64,000 nucleotides of DNA from positions 5,381 through 69,380 of the forward strand of contig CAVYYR010000005.1 in NCBI GenBank assembly GCA_963772785.1, given 5' to 3'. The number at the start of each line of letters is the position of its first letter. Positions within the stretch are counted from its first letter, which is position 1. Below the pieces are notes generated by a model. That model was not told the DNA's origin. It saw nothing but the letters and a program-made list of their open reading frames with translations, and did no database searches. Position numbers and translations under genes: made by a program. This document shows positions 57,335 to 64,000 of this stretch, piece after piece. This DNA is from an uncultured Bacillaceae bacterium. Its GTDB lineage: Bacteria > Bacillota > Bacilli > Bacillales > Halobacillaceae.

Positions 57335-58761
57335 ATTTTGAAACGATTATAGGCCTAGAGGTCCACGTTGAATTAAAAACGGCATCTAAAATCTTCAGCC
57401 CGTCCCCGAACATGTTCGGAGATGAGCCGAATACAAACGTAAACCCGATTGATCTCGGGTACCCGGGCGTATTGCCTGTATTGAACGAAGAAGCTGTCAA
57501 CTATGCGATGAAAGCCGCAATGGCTTTGAATTGTGATATCGCGACGGACACGAAGTTCGATCGTAAAAACTATTTCTATCCGGACAACCCGAAAGCGTAT
57601 CAGATTTCCCAATTTGATCAGCCAATCGGAGAAAACGGCTATATTGATATCGAAGTGGACGGCGAGAAAAAACGGATCGGCATTACGCGTCTTCACATGG
57701 AGGAAGACGCCGGTAAGCTGACCCACAGTGATGATGGCTACTCCCTTGTGGACTATAACCGTCAGGGTACACCGCTTGTCGAAATCGTATCCGAGCCGGA
57801 CATCCGTTCACCAAAGGAAGCATATGCGTACCTGGAAGCTTTGAAAAATATCATCCAGTACACTGGTGTTTCTGATTGTAAAATGGAAGAAGGTTCACTT
57901 CGTTGTGACGCCAACCTGTCGATCCGCCCGATCGGTCAGGAAGAGTTCGGTGTGAAAACCGAGCTTAAGAACTTGAACTCCTTCTCTTTCGTACAAAAAG
58001 GACTTGAGTTTGAAGAAGTGCGCCAGCAGAAGGAACTGCTTTCCGGTGGAGAAATCCTTCAGGAAACACGCCGTTATGATGAACAAACGAAAGAGACTAT
58101 TCTTATGCGTGTTAAAGAAGGTTCTGACGATTACCGCTACTTCCCGGAGCCGGATCTTGTGCCTCTGCACATAGATGAAGCCTGGAAACAGCGTATTTTC
58201 GACCAGATCCCAGAGCTTCCGGCTGCCCGTAAGAAGCGTTATATTGAGGAACTTGATCTTCCGGAATACGATGCGATGGTGCTTACCAATAACAAAGAAC
58301 TCTCTGACTTCTTTGAAGAAACCATTGCTGAGGGAGCCGATATCAAGCAGGCATCCAACTGGCTGATGGGTGAAGTTTCCGCTTATATGAACAAAAACTA
58401 TAAAGAACTTCATGAACTCGCCCTTACACCAGCTTCCCTTGCGAAGATGATTAAGCTGATCGAAGATGGCACGATTTCGTCCAAGATTGCGAAGAAAGTG
58501 TTCAGCGAACTGGTTGAAAAAGGCGGCGATCCAGAGAAAATTGTTAAAGATAAAGGACTTGTCCAGATTTCCGATGAAGGTCAGCTGACCGAAATCGTAA
58601 CGACCATTCTGGATAACAATCCGCAATCCATTGAAGACTATAAGAACGGTAAAGACAAAGCGCTCGGATTCCTCGTCGGTCAAGTAATGAAAGAAACCAA
58701 AGGTCAGGCAAACCCGCCGATGGTAAACAAAATTATTTTGGCTGAAATGGAGAAGCGCTAA
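57331..58761 (+). CDS. gatB: Asp/Glu-tRNA amidotransferase subunit B
   Basis: [30 protein letters not shown]. Confidence 0.98.
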
Positions 58762-58779
58762 AGCCTGCCAATAGGTTAA

Positions 58780-58815
58780 ACGAAAGCACGCACGGCGGTT
58801 GGTGCGTGCTTTCGT
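58780..58815 (+). terminator. Hairpin after gatB
   Basis: ACGAAAGCACGCAC...GTGCGTGCTTTCGT. Confidence 0.7.
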
Positions 58816-58917
58816 ATGGATGAGGAAAACCCATCATATACTATAAAAAGTGTTTTCAAATTCAGGAAAAAGAGCTATGATGTTCTATGGAACAAGCCTG
58901 GATGAGGGGGTCATACC

Positions 58918-59832
58918 ATGAAACGTGCTCGAATAATTTATAACCCGACCTCTGGGAGAGAACTCATTCGTAAAGTCCTCCCTGATATTCTGCAGCGGTT
59001 TGAACAAACCGGCTACGAAACATCGACACATGCAACCACCCGTGCCGGAGATGCGATCGAAGCTGCAAAATACGCTGTAGATCGGGAGTTTGATGTAGTC
59101 GTAGCTGCCGGTGGGGATGGAACCATTAATGAAGTGATTAATGGTATTGCCGAACAGGACCACAAACCGAAGCTCGGCATCATTCCAGTCGGGACAACTA
59201 ACGATTTTGCACGTGCGTTAAATATACCAAGAAATATTCATAAGGCCGTCGATATCATTTTGGAAGAGCATACTCAGCCGCTGGATATCGGCCGCGTGAA
59301 CGGTCATTACTTTATGAACATTGCCGGGGGAGGAAAGATCACCGAGATTTCCTATGAAGTTCCTAGCAAGCTGAAAACCATGATCGGACAGCTGGCCTAT
59401 TATCTTAAAGGAATTGAAATGCTGCCTTCGATCCGTCCGACACGCGTCGAAATAGAGTATGACGGCAAATGGTATGAAGGAGAGATCATGTTATTTCTCG
59501 TTTCCAATACCAACTCCGTCGGCGGTCTGGAGAAACTGGCTCCATCGGCCCGCATGGATGATGGATTATTCGACTTAATGATTATTGAAAAAATGAACAT
59601 TGCCGAATTCGTCCGTCTCGCCACACTTGCGATTCAAGGCAACCATTTGAATCATCCGAAGTTCATTCACACCACCGCAAGCCGCGTGAAGGTGAAGACG
59701 GATGAGAAAATGCAGTTGAACATTGATGGTGAGTTCGGCGGCATGATGCCGGGAGAATTTGTGAATCTATACCGCCACCTGGATTTCTTCTTACCGAAGG
59801 ATAAATTTCCAGGCGAATTAGAAGAATCGTGA
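58918..59832 (+). CDS. dagK: Diacylglycerol kinase (YerQ/DagK)
   Basis: NPTSG, GGDGTINEV, PVGTTNDF, NIDGE. Confidence 0.94.
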   Translation: MKRARIIYNPTSGRELIRKVLPDILQRFEQTGYETSTHATTRAGDAIEAAKYAVDREFDVVVAAGGDGTINEVINGIAEQDHKPKLGIIPVGTTNDFARALNIPRNIHKAVDIILEEHTQPLDIGRVNGHYFMNIAGGGKITEISYEVPSKLKTMIGQLAYYLKGIEMLPSIRPTRVEIEYDGKWYEGEIMLFLVSNTNSVGGLEKLAPSARMDDGLFDLMIIEKMNIAEFVRLATLAIQGNHLNHPKFIHTTASRVKVKTDEKMQLNIDGEFGGMMPGEFVNLYRHLDFFLPKDKFPGELEES

Positions 59833-59833
59833 A

Positions 59834-59867
59834 GCGCTGCTGTCCTATCCGGGGCAGCGGCGTTTTC
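59834..59867 (+). terminator. Terminator after dagK
   Basis: GCGCTGCTG...GGCAGCGGC plus T-run. Confidence 0.65.
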
Positions 59868-59939
59868 TAATGGTTTCATGAAACACTAGAATTTGTGATA
59901 AACTACGAACACAGAGTCTAACTAGAAAAGGACGGATAA

Positions 59940-61325
59940 ATGATGGCAAAACCAAAGCCGCCCGTACAGAAAAACCAAACCATACATCTGACGTTTGAGG
60001 ATTTAACCCATGAAGGCAATGGGGTAGGGAAAGTGGATGGCTATCCGCTCTTCGTACCGTATGGTCTTCCCGGGGAAGAAGCCGAAGTAAAAGTCGTCAA
60101 AGTGAAAAAGAACTTTGGCTTCGGTAAGCTCTTGAAGGTAAAAGAAGAAAGCGAAGACCGTGTCGAGCCGCCATGTGATGTGTATTACCAGTGCGGCGGC
60201 TGCCAGCTGCAGCACATGAGCTATAGCATGCAGCTTGAGATGAAGCACAATCAGGTGAAAAACGCGATGAAGAAAATCGGACACCTCGAACACGTTCCTG
60301 TCCACGAAACGATCGGAATGGCCGACCCGTGGCGCTACCGTAATAAAATTCAAATTCCCGTCGGACAAAAAGAAGACGGAAAGCTCAAGACCGGCTTTTA
60401 CCAGAAGCGCAGCCACAACATTATTGATATGGATACGTGTATTATCCAGGATGAGCTGAACGACCGCATGGTGGAAACCGTAAGGCACATCGCCACGGAA
60501 CTCAGCATCTCAGCTTATGATGAAGACACCCATCGCGGCACGCTGCGTCATATTATGGTCCGCACCGGGCAGACAACGAAAGATATTATGATTGTGCTCG
60601 TAACCAAAACGAAGAACCTGCCTGAACAGGACAAGCTGATTGATGAAATCCGTGACGCTTTTCCAAGTGTGAAGTCAATTGTTCATAACGTGAATAATCA
60701 GAAGACCAATGTGATTCTCGGCAAAGAAACCAAAGTCATCTGGGGCGACGAATACATCTACGATATGATCGGCGATATTAAATTCATGATCTCACCAAAA
60801 TCGTTCTATCAGGTCAACCCGACCCAGACGAAGAATCTATATGACAAAGCGCTCGAATACGCTGACCTTCGCGGCGGCGAAACCGTCATTGACGCCTACT
60901 GCGGCATTGGCACGATCTCCCTTTTCCTCGCCCAGCAAGCGAAAAAAGTGTACGGCGTCGAAGTCGTTCCCGAAGCCGTTACCGATGCGAAGAAAAACGC
61001 CCGTCTGAATAAAATGGACAACGCTGAATTTTATGTCGGACAAGCCGAAGAGCTGATGCCATGGTGGCGCAACCAAGGGCTCCGCCCGGACGTGATCGTG
61101 GTCGATCCACCACGTAAGGGCTGCGATGAAGAGCTACTTAAAGCCATGCTTGATATGGAACCGGAGCGTATCGTCTATGTATCGTGTAACCCTTCAACGC
61201 TCGCACGTGATTTGCGTGTTCTTGAGGATGGGGGATATGCGACACAGGAGGTTCAGCCGGTGGATATGTTCCCGCAGACGAGTCATGTGGAGTGTGTGAC
61301 TTGGCTTGAGAAGAAAGAGAAGTAA
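59940..61325 (+). CDS. rlmD: 23S rRNA (uracil-5)-methyltransferase RlmD/RlmCD
   Basis: TRAM domain, [40 protein letters not shown]. Confidence 0.96.
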
Positions 61326-61361
61326 GGTTTTAATAAGAAATAGGTTTGTGGAGGTGCTAGA

Positions 61362-61565
61362 ATGGAAGCGAATAAAAAGTGGTTAGCCATACCTGAAAAT
61401 GAAAGAAAGCAACTTATAGCAAACGTTTTTTGCCGCTCCTGTAAGGATGAAGTGACCATCAAAGATTTTATTATCGTTGATCATCCTATGGGTGTGATGT
61501 TAGAGGGTAAATGCAAAAACTGTGGAAGTAAGGCAGTAAGAGTAGTGGAGATGGATGAAGAATAG
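61362..61565 (+). CDS. Small zinc-ribbon-like hypothetical protein
   Basis: GGAGG SD; CRSC and CKNC pairs. Confidence 0.75.
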   Translation: MEANKKWLAIPENERKQLIANVFCRSCKDEVTIKDFIIVDHPMGVMLEGKCKNCGSKAVRVVEMDEE

Positions 61566-61636
61566 AGATGCAGGGATGGATTATCCTTGCTTTTGTACTT
61601 GGCTTTAATAAGGTACGCGGTGTACGGGGGGATTAA

Positions 61637-62278
61637 ATGAATCGAGTAATCAAAGGGCTAGGTATCGGATTCTTATCTATAGGTCTATTAAGTGGCTGTA
61701 TGGAAGAGAGACAAGGAAATATAACCAAAGAAGCCCCTATTAAAGCCGATACACAAATGGAAAAATCTAAAGAAACAGAAACGAAAGAGAAGGACCAATA
61801 TTATACCTTTCAAGATGTGGAAAAGTGGAAAGAAGCGCATTCATTCGAATTTGCCTTCGATAAAGTTTTCGGCCATGATAGACATTTTGGAATGGTTAAT
61901 GACGGTGAAATTAAATTAAATGAGAGAGATGATATAGTAAATACCGAGAATGGATTCGAGAAACGGAAAGTCATAAGTTCGGTCGCGTTATATATTGAAA
62001 TGGATGTAAATAAAGATACAAGACAAGAAATGATCGATTACCTTCATTATTTGAAATATAGCGGATTATTGGAACAAAAAGAACATGGATTTACAATTTT
62101 TATGTTTGTGTATCAACCGACCGAACCTGGTATGAATACTCCACAACCTCATCAGGAATGGCGCTTAAAATCCGATAAGGTTCACCAGATGAAGTTTGAA
62201 GGGAATAAGAAGAATATTTTAGGTGACATCAAGCGGTATGGAAGATTTAAAGGAATGAATAAAAATAATGCGATGTAG
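61637..62278 (+). CDS. Hypothetical lipoprotein
   Basis: GGGGG SD; lipobox LLSGC. Confidence 0.75.
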   Translation: MNRVIKGLGIGFLSIGLLSGCMEERQGNITKEAPIKADTQMEKSKETETKEKDQYYTFQDVEKWKEAHSFEFAFDKVFGHDRHFGMVNDGEIKLNERDDIVNTENGFEKRKVISSVALYIEMDVNKDTRQEMIDYLHYLKYSGLLEQKEHGFTIFMFVYQPTEPGMNTPQPHQEWRLKSDKVHQMKFEGNKKNILGDIKRYGRFKGMNKNNAM

Positions 62279-62424
62279 GATTTTTATTTCAAATTTTGTA
62301 TAAGCATGGTGGCTCCTAAGGGAAGCAACACATCAACGTCTGAACGGCCATGCAGGTTGGGCTGGTTTTTTGTTTTGAATTAATTAAGGATACATGCTTT
62401 TAGGTAATCGGGTTATTGACTATG

Positions 62425-62805
62425 AAAAATACCCCCCCTGTCTCTAGAAATAAAAACACTTTCTAGGACAGAGGAAGTGGTGTTGTTGGATAAAGTACTT
62501 TAGTGCAAACTGGGAACCCGGATTACGCTGCTGTTTAACACCTGAATTTCTTCAACTTGTCATGTGCTTAAATATAGCGTATATAGTTTCGCCCACATAC
62601 ATCATCACAAGTACCATTGACCGTAATCAATCGAAACTCCACCGAACTGTTACTAGCAAGAAGTCGTTCCCACTTCTTTGAGGCTAACAATCCGTTCTGA
62701 AAACAGCAGAAAAGACCTTGACTAATGAACGCTACGCTGATTTTCTGCATCGGCTCAGCTAACCTTACCTGTTTAGTTACAGTCGCTTTCAGGGCGACCA
62801 CGACT
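62425..62805 (-). ncRNA. Candidate ~380-nt structured non-coding RNA
   Basis: TTGACA (62841-36), 18 nt, TATAAA (62817-12); several hairpins, a 9-bp long-range helix, strand-specific terminator 62474-62424. Confidence 0.6.
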
Positions 62806-63049
62806 TGTTGCTTTATACTTTTTATAGTTTTTTATTGTCAAACTTTAAAACGACAGCGTTTTTACAGAGGTAGCGGCTCTGATCTTGTTGTGGTTACTTA
62901 TGCATTTAATAAAACCTTTTAAGTAGGATAAAGCAACTTTGAACTTTAGGTACTATCTACACAGAATGAATATTAGTAAAGGAAAGACCTGAGACTGTAT
63001 TTGATTTTATAAAGAGTAGCGGAATTTCAAGGCAAAAGTGATTAGCAGT

Positions 63050-63096
63050 AAAAAAGCAACCCTCTTCCCTCTTTTAAGGAACAGGGTTGCTTTTTT
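63050..63096. terminator. Orphan bidirectional terminator
   Basis: AAAAAAGCAACCCT...AGGGTTGCTTTTTT. Confidence 0.7.
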
Positions 63097-63296
63097 ATTT
63101 TGAAAAAATAGTAGTACAAAAATTATAAATAGAAAATGGTTAAACATATAATTAATGGTATGATCTAGCCAGTATTAATCATCAGAACTAAATATGTTAA
63201 AAATTACCTTACAACCACATATAGTGTGGTAAAATAACGATAATAAAATATAAAGATATAAAGTTCTTAATACAAATTTATAGGGAGGTTAATATA

Positions 63297-63620
63297 ATGA
63301 ATAATGAAATAAAAATTTATGAAGAATATCCTCAACGTATAATAATTGAATCGCCTCAAGAAAGCGGTGATAGAATAGTTTCATTGCTTTTAAAAGAAAA
63401 TTATTCTTTGATAGATTTCATTCCCAGTGGAATAGGAAGATCAAAAAATAATGCATTCAATATTAACGATGCTGAAATGAAATATTTTAGCATAATGAAA
63501 CTTGCCCAAACTATTAATACGGATGTTGAGATAATTGCTAATTTACTTAATAAAGAGTTTGGTGGATATTTACACAAATTCAATGATTACTATTTGGTGT
63601 CCGATAACCCCGGCTGTTGA
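63297..63620 (+). CDS. AT-rich hypothetical protein (107 aa)
   Basis: GGGAGG SD; no recognised motif. Confidence 0.65.
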   Translation: MNNEIKIYEEYPQRIIIESPQESGDRIVSLLLKENYSLIDFIPSGIGRSKNNAFNINDAEMKYFSIMKLAQTINTDVEIIANLLNKEFGGYLHKFNDYYLVSDNPGC

Positions 63621-64000
63621 CTTAATTCGTAGCTCTGTTTTTGCAAATTGATTAGATGAGTACTCTGATTTAAAATTCACATGCTAGTATTAACTTATTA
63701 AAAAAGTAAAATGGATTCACAAATTTATATTGGAGTGGATGCAAATGTTTTCATCCAATCGAGCAGAATTAGAAATTTATTTTGATTCAATCTTAGATGT
63801 GAGCGAATGAAGATGATCTACGACACGGCGGATTCCACTACGTAACAAATAATGTCTTATAGGGTTTAAATTTTGATTTCTCCAACTAAAGTCATCATAA
63901 ATCTCACCATATACTTCCATTTTCAACCTAGATATGGTTCAATAAAAGTGCCGTTACACTAAAACAGTGGTCTTTTAATTATCTAGTTATTACACTATGC

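What the first reader, a model, noticed from the sequence alone, without database searches (positions are those of the whole stretch)
62425..62841. Candidate ~380-nt ornate non-coding RNA in the post-rlmD island
Seen on the minus strand: a near-consensus SigA promoter (TTGACA-18-TATAAA) and a ~15-bp terminator whose U-tract is on this strand only, with no SD-led ORF between. Internal structure: GTCGC/GCGAC hairpin (62782-62798); GCTGA/TCAGC stem; nested GAAC-TGTTA-AAGAAGT/ACTTCTT-TAACA-GTTC arm; ATTGA/TCAAT hairpin; ACTTGT/ACAAGT arm enclosing an 8-bp stem with a GCGAAA loop; TGAA-GAAA-TTCA GNRA hairpin; and a perfect 9-bp long-range helix (62701-62709 with 62528-62536) closing a multi-branch domain. 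I cannot match it to RNase P, tmRNA, SRP, 6S, OLE, group I/II introns or riboswitches. Inference: an independently transcribed structured RNA in a mobile hotspot, function unknown; no RT or nuclease partner is adjacent.
Basis: partly seen in the sequence, partly recalled or inferred. Interest (0 to 1): 0.8.

Follow-up and report, generated by a model that had tools for sequence, protein, structure and literature searches.

The report
New structured RNA family in Bacillales
The stretch is a gene for a roughly 385-base, intricately folded non-coding RNA of a family that no database or searchable paper describes; it rides on mobile defence islands and giant phage-plasmids, and in one whole genus it sits next to a small stress-regulator operon.

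Summary
I found about 40 homologues in three clades:
- clade 1, on integrative defence islands of Halobacillus, Virgibacillus, Sediminibacillus and others;
- clade 2, on pBtic235-like phage-plasmids of 220-240 kb in Bacillus and Cytobacillus;
- clade 3, chromosomal, with 1-3 copies in all 17 genomes of one genus.

On a structure-blind MAFFT alignment of clade 1, 95.7% of cells pair and 8 pairs change on both sides. On a model-fitted alignment of 19 distinct sequences, 38 of 54 pairs change on both sides. The covariation score is 0.474 against 0.189 for shuffles and at most 0.12 for slid controls.

The 77-aa ORF is frameshifted among homologues. Rfam 15 gave no hit for any clade. A 400-genome sample of the phylum gave no hit outside the order.

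In clade 3, all 21 mapped copies lie 175-650 nt downstream, on the same strand, of a DUF2922 gene. In the three loci I read this is a DUF1659-DUF2922(-YvrJ) operon, and its S. aureus relatives SroA/SroB control mRNA stability.

My best guess is a trans-acting RNA that partners or decoys these proteins. That guess is inferred, at about 0.3.

The parts
62865..62881 (-). Upstream inverted repeat CAGAG-N7-CTCTG, a possible operator or insulator hairpin
   Evidence: Conserved in win, G001, G060, MAG Bacillus, Sediminibacillus, G722, G683, G750, G744, G183 and Cytobacillus pN497. The arms never vary, so pairing is neither supported nor refuted.
62851..62862 (-). Conserved box AAAACGCTGTCG (CTGTC repeated with the 3' arm of the inverted repeat), just upstream of the -35
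   Evidence: Near-invariant in clade 1 and Cytobacillus. Function unknown.
62812..62841 (-). Promoter-like TTGACA-18-TATAAA
   Evidence: Sequence. GACA and nAnTAA keep a constant 18-nt spacing in clade 1 and Cytobacillus, read from the sequences printed. In most homologues the second hexamer abuts P1, so the start site is unproven.
62424..62805 (-). RNA body, about 382 nt, from the presumed start near 62805 to the end of the U-tract
   Evidence: Fold z = -2.7. Homologues align over the full length.
62782..62798 (-). P1 hairpin GUCGC/GCGAC. Its loop CCUG (62793-62790) can pair with CAGG (62771-62768), giving pseudoknot PK1
   Evidence: P1 stem types seen: GUCG/CGAC, CGUG/CACG, GGUCG/CGACC, ACGUG/CACGU. 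PK1 is CCU/AGG plus a fourth pair that is G-C, U.G or U-A.
62736..62759 (-). P2 hairpin GCUGA/UCAGC with the 14-nt loop GCCGAUGCAGAAAA
   Evidence: C-G changes to U-A in 7 sequences. Clade 3 has one extra A-U pair. The loop is nearly invariant in all three clades.
62528..62709 (-). Core domain closed by the long-range helix P3 (62709-62701 with 62536-62528). It holds P4, P5, P6, P7, P8, P9 and P10
   Evidence: 54 pairs tested: MAFFT, clade 1; 19 distinct sequences. P3 has 6 of 9 pairs changed on both sides.
62643..62694 (-). P4 (CGGAUUGUU/AACAGUUCG) and P5 (AAGAAGU/ACUUCUU) arm with loop GGGAACG
   Evidence: P5 is 99% paired, with 4 of 7 pairs changed on both sides. The distal part of P4 is kept only in clade 1 (73% paired overall).
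62616..62631 (-). P6 hairpin AUUGAU-UACG-GUCAAU
   Evidence: 5 of 6 pairs changed on both sides. The stem is fully replaced in clade 2 (GUUCU/AGAAC) and clade 3 (CGUAC/GUACG), and most of those stems keep the UACG loop.
62555..62612 (-). P7 (ACUUGUGA/UGACAAGU), enclosing P8 (62600-62579, GCGAAA loop) and P9 (62578-62566)
   Evidence: P7 has 8 of 8 pairs changed on both sides, P8 has 7 of 8. P8 has 4 of 8 on the structure-blind alignment.
62543..62554 (-). P10 hairpin UGAA-GAAA-UUCA
   Evidence: The loop is GAAA, GAGA, GUAA or GAUA in clade 1, always GNRA. The stem is replaced in clade 2 (AGG/CCU).
62432..62480 (-). P13, a long 3' hairpin (terminator-like), followed by UAUUUUUC at 62431-62424
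   Evidence: Compensatory changes in G060 and G744. The U-tract is good in 8 of 11 clade-1 members, weak in G001 and G031, and absent in clades 2 and 3.
62388..62423 (-). Conserved block after the hairpin: AUAGUCAAUAACCCGAUUACCUAAAAGCAUGUAUCC
   Evidence: Conserved in clade 1 and recognisable in clade 2. Homology between genomes ends right after it. Role unknown.
62568..62801 (-). 77-aa ORF (GTG start), not a gene
   Evidence: From the shared AUG the frame runs 16 to 100 aa in different homologues. It is frameshifted by 1-nt indels, and the start is CUG in B. velezensis pAD3.

Best explanation
Shown: window 62805-62424 (minus strand) is a member of an undescribed family of structured non-coding RNAs of about 385 nt. 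The fold has a 5' hairpin with a likely pseudoknot, and a hairpin with an almost invariant 14-nt loop. A multi-branch core is closed by a 9-bp long-range helix and carries a UACG hairpin, a GNRA hairpin and a GCGAAA hairpin. A long 3' hairpin ends the RNA. The structure exists only on this strand, because many pairs are G.U.

Inferred: it is made from its own promoter as a stable RNA that acts in trans. The copy in this genome is cargo of a defence island at the rlmD hotspot. The working partner is most likely the host's DUF1659/DUF2922 (SroA/SroB-like) small-protein module, with the RNA serving as their scaffold, target or decoy. Mobile elements would then carry an RNA-only copy to tap or blunt that stress circuit.

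My odds: a real structured RNA gene about 0.9; acts in trans about 0.7; linked to DUF1659/DUF2922 proteins about 0.3.
For: Structure:
- Fold z = -2.7.
- On the structure-blind MAFFT alignment of 10 clade-1 sequences, 95.7% of cells pair and 8 pairs change on both sides. The covariation score is 0.228 against 0.164 +/- 0.010 for shuffles (0 of 500), and slid controls reach at most 0.073.
- On 19 distinct sequences of three clades aligned to model R2, 91.8% of cells pair against 74.4% for shuffles, and 38 of 54 pairs change on both sides. The score is 0.474 against 0.189, with slid controls at most 0.122.
- P2 and PK1 covary.
- GNRA loop variants and most of the UACG loops are kept on unrelated stems.

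Non-coding: frames differ among homologues.

Not a known family: no Rfam hit for any clade.

Trans-acting rather than a leader: in the clade-1 loci I read, the flanking genes differ or converge.

Mobile carriage:
- Islands with three large serine recombinases sit in the 3' end of rlmD.
- Defence cargo is MmeI or AriA/AriB-like.

Protein link:
- 17 of 17 genomes of genus g28 carry the RNA.
- In the 13 g28 genomes mapped, all 21 copies lie 175-650 nt downstream, on the same strand, of a DUF2922 gene, and 21 of 23 DUF2922 genes are so followed.
- Pfam identifies DUF1659, DUF2922 and YvrJ.
- All ten genomes that carry an RNA copy away from a DUF2922 gene, eight of them clade-1 hosts, encode DUF2922 elsewhere. 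The five phage-plasmid or viral records encode none.
- SroA and SroB modulate sigS mRNA stability in S. aureus (bioRxiv 10.1101/2022.10.19.512975).
Against:
- In most homologues the -10-like hexamer touches P1, so the start site may lie elsewhere.
- The U-tract is weak or absent in many members, and a 36-nt block past the hairpin is conserved. The 3' end is therefore unknown.
- The DUF2922 link holds in one genus only. In clades 1 and 2 no such gene is adjacent. In this genome the DUF1659-DUF2922-YvrJ locus on contig 18 has no RNA of this family.
- Adjacency could reflect shared regulation rather than binding.
- The alignment is fitted to the model and leans towards the structure.
Confidence: 0.4

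Rival explanations
1. The RNA works on its own, with no tie to DUF1659/DUF2922 proteins. It could be a ribozyme, a self-assembling ornate RNA in the manner of ROOL or GOLLD, or a decoy used in conflicts between mobile elements and host defence. The neighbourhood in genus g28 would then reflect only shared regulation or co-inheritance.
For: - Clades 1 and 2 have no conserved protein neighbour.
- They sit among defence genes or in the early and replication region of jumbo phage-plasmids.
- Strongly conserved loops and junctions (A9) fit a catalytic or tertiary-contact role.
Against: The 21 of 21 linkage with DUF2922 genes in g28, through duplications to 1-3 copies per genome, is tighter than co-regulation usually gives. 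No catalytic motif or oligomer evidence is available.
Confidence: 0.33
2. It is a base-pairing regulatory RNA. A long sRNA would use one of its invariant single-stranded stretches, such as the P2 loop GCCGAUGCAGAAAA, to pair with host or element mRNAs.
For: It has a promoter-like element and a terminator-like hairpin. The 14-nt loop is nearly invariant across three clades, as seed regions are.
Against: 385 nt with about 13 conserved helices and pseudoknots is far more structure than seed-type sRNAs keep. I did not search for targets.
Confidence: 0.12
3. It acts as DNA or in cis. It could be a single-strand origin, a primer or origin region, or a recombination site of the mobile elements, or a 3'-UTR element of the upstream operon in clade 3.
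For: - Conservation continues past the hairpin, and homology ends abruptly after that block.
- In the phage-plasmids the element lies before DnaE and LigA, after an RNase H-like gene, and is followed by repeated GACAGTC motifs.
- In clade 3 it follows an operon on the same strand.
Against: - It is a core chromosomal copy in a whole genus.
- The pairs are rich in G.U.
- No Rep or relaxase lies next to the island copies.
- In the window it stands alone, between a convergent lipoprotein gene and a divergent ORF.
- A hairpin separates the operon and the RNA in clade 3.
Confidence: 0.08
4. It encodes a small protein: the 77-aa ORF, or the 60-aa frame from the shared AUG.
For: A frame is open in the window, and an AUG is conserved in the P2 loop.
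Against: Frame length is 16-100 aa, and homologues are shifted relative to each other by 1-nt indels. One start is CUG, and there is no Shine-Dalgarno sequence. Substitutions follow base-pairing, not codons.
Confidence: 0.02

Closest known systems
ROOL and GOLLD RNAs (large ornate RNAs, often on prophages; Rfam)
   Same: Long, many-helix non-coding RNA with GNRA loops and pseudoknots. It is carried by phages, plasmids and islands, has no fixed protein neighbour there, and its function is unknown.
   Different: No covariance-model match at E <= 10 or at gathering score. It is smaller, about 385 nt against roughly 580 and 800 (sizes from my own knowledge). It is confined to one order, and one clade is tied to a DUF1659-DUF2922(-YvrJ) operon.
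OLE RNA with OapA/B/C proteins
   Same: A large structured RNA of Bacillota that is genomically tied to genes for small partner proteins, as clade 3 is tied to DUF1659/DUF2922/YvrJ.
   Different: No Rfam match. Different partner genes. OLE is not typically carried by mobile elements (my own knowledge). No membrane or RNP data exist here.
raiA motif RNA
   Same: An abundant structured RNA of Bacillota of unknown function, with a conserved multi-helix fold and standing as its own gene.
   Different: No Rfam match. raiA is about 200 nt and occurs in thousands of species (PMC12968392 abstract). This family is rare and patchy outside one genus.
SroA/SroB (DUF1659/DUF2922) - sigS mRNA circuit of S. 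aureus
   Same: The same two protein families are encoded directly upstream of the clade-3 RNA. In S. aureus they act on the stability of an RNA.
   Different: No structured RNA partner has been reported there. Whether these proteins bind RNA directly is not known. The window's copy has no such genes beside it.
ColE1 RNA II and plasmid single-strand origins
   Same: A few hundred bases of strand-specific structure on extrachromosomal elements. The phage-plasmid copies lie near RNase H-like and polymerase genes.
   Different: Chromosomal core copies exist, no origin function is shown, and no Rep or relaxase is adjacent. This is a resemblance of setting only.

Membership tests
Any Rfam 15 family (ROOL, GOLLD, OLE, HEARO, raiA, RNase P, tmRNA, 6S, SRP, riboswitches) | Covariance-model score at or above the family's gathering score | tested here: not met
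   Window 58000-64000 at E <= 10 gave only chance hits of 17-23 bits to miRNA and sRNA models. Clade-2 loci gave none at gathering score. Clade-3 loci gave none at gathering score or at E <= 10. ARAGORN found no tRNA or tmRNA.
Large ornate bacterial ncRNA (the kind, not a homologous family) | Several hundred nt, many helices kept by covariation, and conserved unpaired nucleotides | tested here: met
   About 13 helices. 38 of 54 core pairs change on both sides. The 14-nt loop is invariant.
Large ornate bacterial ncRNA (the kind, not a homologous family) | No conserved reading frame | tested here: met
Large ornate bacterial ncRNA (the kind, not a homologous family) | Discrete stable transcript | not testable with these tools
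Riboswitch / 5' leader | Lies upstream of, and on the same strand as, a conserved class of regulated genes | tested here: not met
   Downstream genes are convergent or unrelated: a lipoprotein in the window, MmeI, AriA/AriB-like genes, type I RM, a 187-aa ORF.
Transposon guide RNAs (TnpB/IscB omega RNA, IS110 bridge RNA) | Adjacent TnpB, IscB or IS110 recombinase gene, and multi-copy element ends | tested here: not met
   Single copy in the genome. No such gene is adjacent. An IS110 gene lies beside a copy that retains only the 3' part in a Peribacillus plasmid.
Type III toxin-antitoxin RNA antitoxin | Tandem direct repeats next to a toxin gene | tested here: not met
   No tandem repeat in the RNA body. 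The only array is 2.3 copies of a 9-mer in the promoter spacer.
Retron / RT-associated ncRNA | Adjacent reverse transcriptase | tested here: not met
   No RT in the window flanks. The plasmid genes annotated as 'reverse transcriptase-like' match only Pfam RVT_3, which I take from my own knowledge to be an RNase H-type domain, and they lie two genes away.
Single-strand origin (sso) of rolling-circle elements | Sits on a rolling-circle replicon or ICE next to rep or relaxase genes and functions as ssDNA | tested here: not met
   Chromosomal core copies in 17 of 17 genomes of one genus. No Rep or relaxase beside the island copies. Function as ssDNA was not testable.

The most novel reading that the evidence does not exclude
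The RNA is the missing RNA component of the DUF1659/DUF2922 (SroA/SroB) system. This would be a ribonucleoprotein switch of an ECF-sigma-type stress response in Bacillales. Defence islands and jumbo phage-plasmids would have captured the RNA alone to manipulate that response in their hosts.
Probability: 0.25. Interest if true: 0.85.

Novelty: new variant of a known kind. Interest (0 to 1): 0.72.

Why it matters
Large, strongly conserved bacterial RNAs without a known job are few (OLE, ROOL, GOLLD, raiA, HEARO), and each has opened new biology.

This family has unusually clean comparative support. It also has three contrasting settings that make function testable:
- a core chromosomal copy welded to a DUF1659-DUF2922(-YvrJ) operon;
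- copies on pBtic235-type jumbo phage-plasmids of a widely used B. thuringiensis strain;
- copies inside serine-recombinase defence islands.

It could give a first molecular handle on two widespread domains of unknown function. It would also be an example of mobile elements carrying an RNA-only module.

Tried and rejected
Searches that found nothing:
- Rfam at permissive thresholds.
- Phage records, by BLAST with all three clades.
- A first collection pattern and a miscounted pattern found nothing. The corrected pattern found 4 genome contigs and 2 viral contigs, and none in metagenomes.
- Earlier notes of this scan held nothing relevant.
- Literature searches by sequence string, yvrJ, DUF2922, pBtic235 and ornate RNAs found no description.

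Ideas rejected:
- The coding reading.
- A second pseudoknot, P5 loop GGGAAC with GUUCCC at 62517-62512. It is perfect in most of clade 1, has no covariation, and is absent in clades 2 and 3. I leave it as possible.
- A helix between CGGGUU (just after P3) and the downstream AACCCG. G060 and G744 break it without compensation.
- An ECF-type promoter (AAAAC...CGAC). The spacing varies from 13 to 18 nt.
- P4 pairing with the J segment (CGGA/UUCG). This alternative is supported only between clades.

Technical limits:
- A clade-3-like RNA beside the host's own DUF2922 locus was not found.

Full report
**Observation.** I read window 62900-62370 on the minus strand.
- TTGACA-18-TATAAA at 62841-62812;
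- the hairpins GUCGC/GCGAC, GCUGA/UCAGC, AUUGAU-UACG-GUCAAU and UGAA-GAAA-UUCA;
- the nested arm CGGAUUGUU...AAGAAGU / ACUUCUU...AACAGUUCG;
- ACUUGUGA/UGACAAGU around the GCGAAA-loop stem;
- the 9-bp long-range helix, 62709-62701 with 62536-62528;
- a 3' hairpin of about 19 bp followed by UAUUUUUC.

The 388-nt strand folds at -112 kcal/mol against -98.7 +/- 4.9 for dinucleotide shuffles, z = -2.7. The consensus scan did not list the promoter, because it requires a T at the last position of the -10 hexamer. The element is single-copy in its genome.

**Known families.** cmscan against Rfam 15 at E <= 10 gave only chance matches of 17-23 bits. The related loci found later gave nothing either. ARAGORN found no tRNA or tmRNA, and there are no tandem repeats in the body. 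Full-text searches by conserved sequence strings, pBtic235, yvrJ, DUF2922/DUF1659 and ornate RNAs found no description of this RNA.

**Relatives.** BLAST over relatives found four copies:
- a copy lacking the 5' part in another genus (G031);
- a 72% copy in another family (G060);
- a 3' fragment (G020).

Only 4 of 56 genomes of the family have it. Plasmid BLAST and a conserved-pattern scan added more:
- the 235-kb B. thuringiensis israelensis plasmid-prophage (pBtic235 type), B. velezensis pAD3 and Cytobacillus pN497;
- two IMG/VR contigs of 164 and 245 kb;
- Virgibacillus halodenitrificans, Sediminibacillus terrae and a Bacillus MAG.

Covariance models built here found further members:
- strong hits in G722, G683, G750, G744 and G183;
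- real members in G396 and G553;
- a distant third clade in genus g28.

With a model trained on all clades, 17 of 17 g28 genomes carry 1-3 copies. A sample of 400 genomes from 278 genera of the phylum had none outside the order.

**Structure.** On a structure-blind MAFFT alignment of ten clade-1 sequences, I wrote down a 54-pair core from the window sequence.
- 95.7% of cells pair.
- 8 pairs change on both sides.
- The covariation score is 0.228 against 0.164 +/- 0.010 for shuffles (0 of 500). Partners slid by 1-3 columns give at most 0.073.

I then aligned 19 distinct sequences of all three clades to model R2, which was built from clade 1 only.
- 91.8% of cells pair, against 74.4% for shuffles.
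- 38 of 54 pairs change on both sides.
- The score is 0.474 against 0.189, and slid controls reach at most 0.122.
- This alignment is fitted to the model, so it leans towards the structure. The margin is large all the same.

Individual helices:
- P6 keeps a UACG loop, in most members, on three unrelated stems (AUUGG/CCAAU, GUUCU/AGAAC, CGUAC/GUACG).
- The P10 loop is GAAA, GAGA, GUAA or GAUA.
- P3 changes from CUGCUGUUU/AAACAGCAG to CCGCUGUUU/AAACAGCGG, CCACUGCUU/AAGCAGUGG and CCCGGUUU/AAAUCGGG.
- P2 switches C-G to U-A in seven sequences and gains an A-U pair in clade 3. Its 14-nt loop GCC(G/A)AUGCA(N)AAAA stays almost invariant.
- P1 occurs as GUCG/CGAC, CGUG/CACG, GGUCG/CGACC and ACGUG/CACGU.
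- The P1 loop CCU(G/U) can pair with (C/G/A)AGG downstream. That is a likely pseudoknot with one covarying pair.
- The distal half of P4 is kept only in clade 1.
- Many pairs are G.U, so the fold belongs to this strand.

**Not coding.** From the shared AUG the frame runs 16 to 100 codons in different homologues. It is shifted by single-base indels, and it starts with CUG in pAD3.

**Extent and ends.** The conserved unit is larger than the RNA body.
- Upstream lie an inverted repeat CAGAG-N7-CTCTG and a box AAAACGCTGTCG, in clade 1 and in Cytobacillus.
- GACA and nAnTAA keep a constant 18-nt spacing. This fits a regulated SigA-type promoter.
- In most homologues the second hexamer touches P1. 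A start 6-8 nt downstream would then fall inside a helix that covariation supports. The start site is therefore open.
- The 3' hairpin has a good U-tract in most of clade 1, but not in G001 or G031, nor in clades 2 and 3.
- A 36-nt block after the hairpin (62423-62388) is conserved, and homology between genomes stops right behind it.

**Setting of clades 1 and 2.**
- In G001 and G031 the RNA lies in an island whose homology with the window breaks exactly in the last ten or so codons of rlmD. The order there is rlmD, three large serine recombinases, cargo, RNA.
- The cargo is an MmeI-family enzyme in G001 and an AriA/AriB-like pair in G031.
- G744 has the RNA, then by my reading of the sequences a nucleotidyltransferase-like protein and a membrane protein, then an IS110-type transposase gene and two such recombinases.
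- G722 has the RNA, then by my reading a type I restriction system, a broken tyrosine integrase and groEL.
- The window is the same rlmD locus. Its genome has no such recombinase. The RNA there sits between a convergent lipoprotein gene and a divergent 107-aa ORF. A broken AriA/PtuA-like ATPase lies just past the window end.
- In the phage-plasmids the RNA fills a gap of about 600 nt. The gap follows ThiF, an RNase H-like (RVT_3) gene and a DNA-binding gene, and precedes small unknown genes, DnaE and LigA.
- No protein gene is a constant neighbour in the clade 1 and 2 loci I read.

**Setting of clade 3.**
- In all three g28 loci I read, the RNA follows DUF1659 and DUF2922 genes on the same strand, with a YvrJ gene between them and the RNA in two of the three.
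- I compared coordinates over 13 genomes. All 21 RNA copies lie 175-650 nt downstream of a DUF2922 gene, and 21 of 23 DUF2922 genes are so followed.
- The conserved sequence starts about 100 nt before P1. It is separated from the operon by hairpins.
- All ten genomes that carry a copy of the RNA away from any DUF2922 gene, eight of them clade-1 hosts, have a DUF2922 gene elsewhere. The five phage-plasmid or viral records have none.
- The host of the window has the operon on contig 18 without this RNA.
- In S. aureus the DUF1659/DUF2922 pair SroA/SroB is induced by the ECF sigma SigS. The two proteins have opposing effects on sigS expression, and SroA stabilises the sigS transcript (bioRxiv 10.1101/2022.10.19.512975).

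**Interpretation.**
- Shown: a structured, non-coding, strand-specific RNA family confined to one order, with mobile and chromosomal clades.
- Inferred: it is a separate, stable, trans-acting RNA.
- Most likely mechanism, at about 0.3: it is the RNA partner, target or decoy of DUF1659/DUF2922 proteins, and mobile elements carry an RNA-only copy.
- Nearly as likely: it works on its own, as a ribozyme, an assembly or a conflict decoy, and the g28 linkage reflects shared regulation.
- Less likely: a seed-type sRNA.
- Unlikely: a DNA-level or cis element. The core chromosomal copies, the G.U pairs and the lack of Rep or relaxase neighbours argue against it.
- Coding is all but excluded.

**Verdict.** This is a new RNA family of the 'large ornate RNA of unknown function' kind, with a concrete, testable lead to two domains of unknown function.

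Noticed in passing
L008:13135-17971 (G001) and L009:13114-17875 (G031); window 61300-61330: An island with three consecutive large serine recombinases (474, 494 and about 496 aa; the third is frameshifted in G001) is integrated into the 3' end of rlmD. It replaces the last ten or so codons (…[13 protein letters not shown] in the window, …HVECVSQLIRRKGN in G001). The arrangement recalls SCC elements at rlmH (my own comparison).
   Followed up: partly
L009:6904-9261 (G031) and L010:9307-11671 (G060): A conserved three-gene set lies beside the RNA in two genera, in different orientation: a 417/435-aa protein, a 187/169-aa protein with CxxC pairs, and a 192/196-aa membrane protein. The G031 set, the only one scanned, has no Pfam or PADLOC family above threshold. 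It may be an undescribed defence system.
   Followed up: partly
L007:9502-10481 (about 120-1100 nt past the window end, same contig): A defence-type ATPase (AAA_15/AAA_23; best PADLOC hits HEC-02A, AriA, PtuA and GajA) is split over three frames, so it is probably a pseudogene. The contig ends inside it.
   Followed up: partly
window 63297-63620 (+): A 107-aa ORF lies divergent from the RNA. It has a good ribosome-binding site (AGGGAGG) and no Pfam or PADLOC match.
   Followed up: partly
window 63046-63101: A strong two-way hairpin (AAAAAAGCAACCC...GGGTTGCTTTTTT) lies between the RNA's upstream region and the 107-aa ORF. It looks like a bidirectional terminator and drew weak chance Rfam hits.
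   Followed up: no
L017:4553-6128 (Peribacillus asahii plasmid): Only the last 125 nt or so of the RNA are present, directly after an IS110-family transposase gene. The RNA gene appears to have been cut by the insertion.
   Followed up: no
L016:6400-6545, L015:6400-6560, L014:6400-6530: Downstream of the phage-plasmid RNA lie repeated GACAGTC/GACTGT motifs and a conserved TTAGGTTAYYGACT box, ahead of the next genes. They could be iterons or operator sites.
   Followed up: no
G000 contig C18, L059:1978-2320 (-): In the window's own genome the DUF2922 and YvrJ genes are separated by a non-coding gap of about 340 nt. It does not match this RNA family and was not examined further.
   Followed up: no
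L060:4001-4154 (Sutcliffiella horikoshii plasmid pBH-BAT-15): A weak, partial match to the 5' part of the family (R3 15.7 bits; BLAST 79% over 68 nt) lies in a 1-kb gap before an ArpU-family regulator gene on a 15-kb plasmid.
   Followed up: partly
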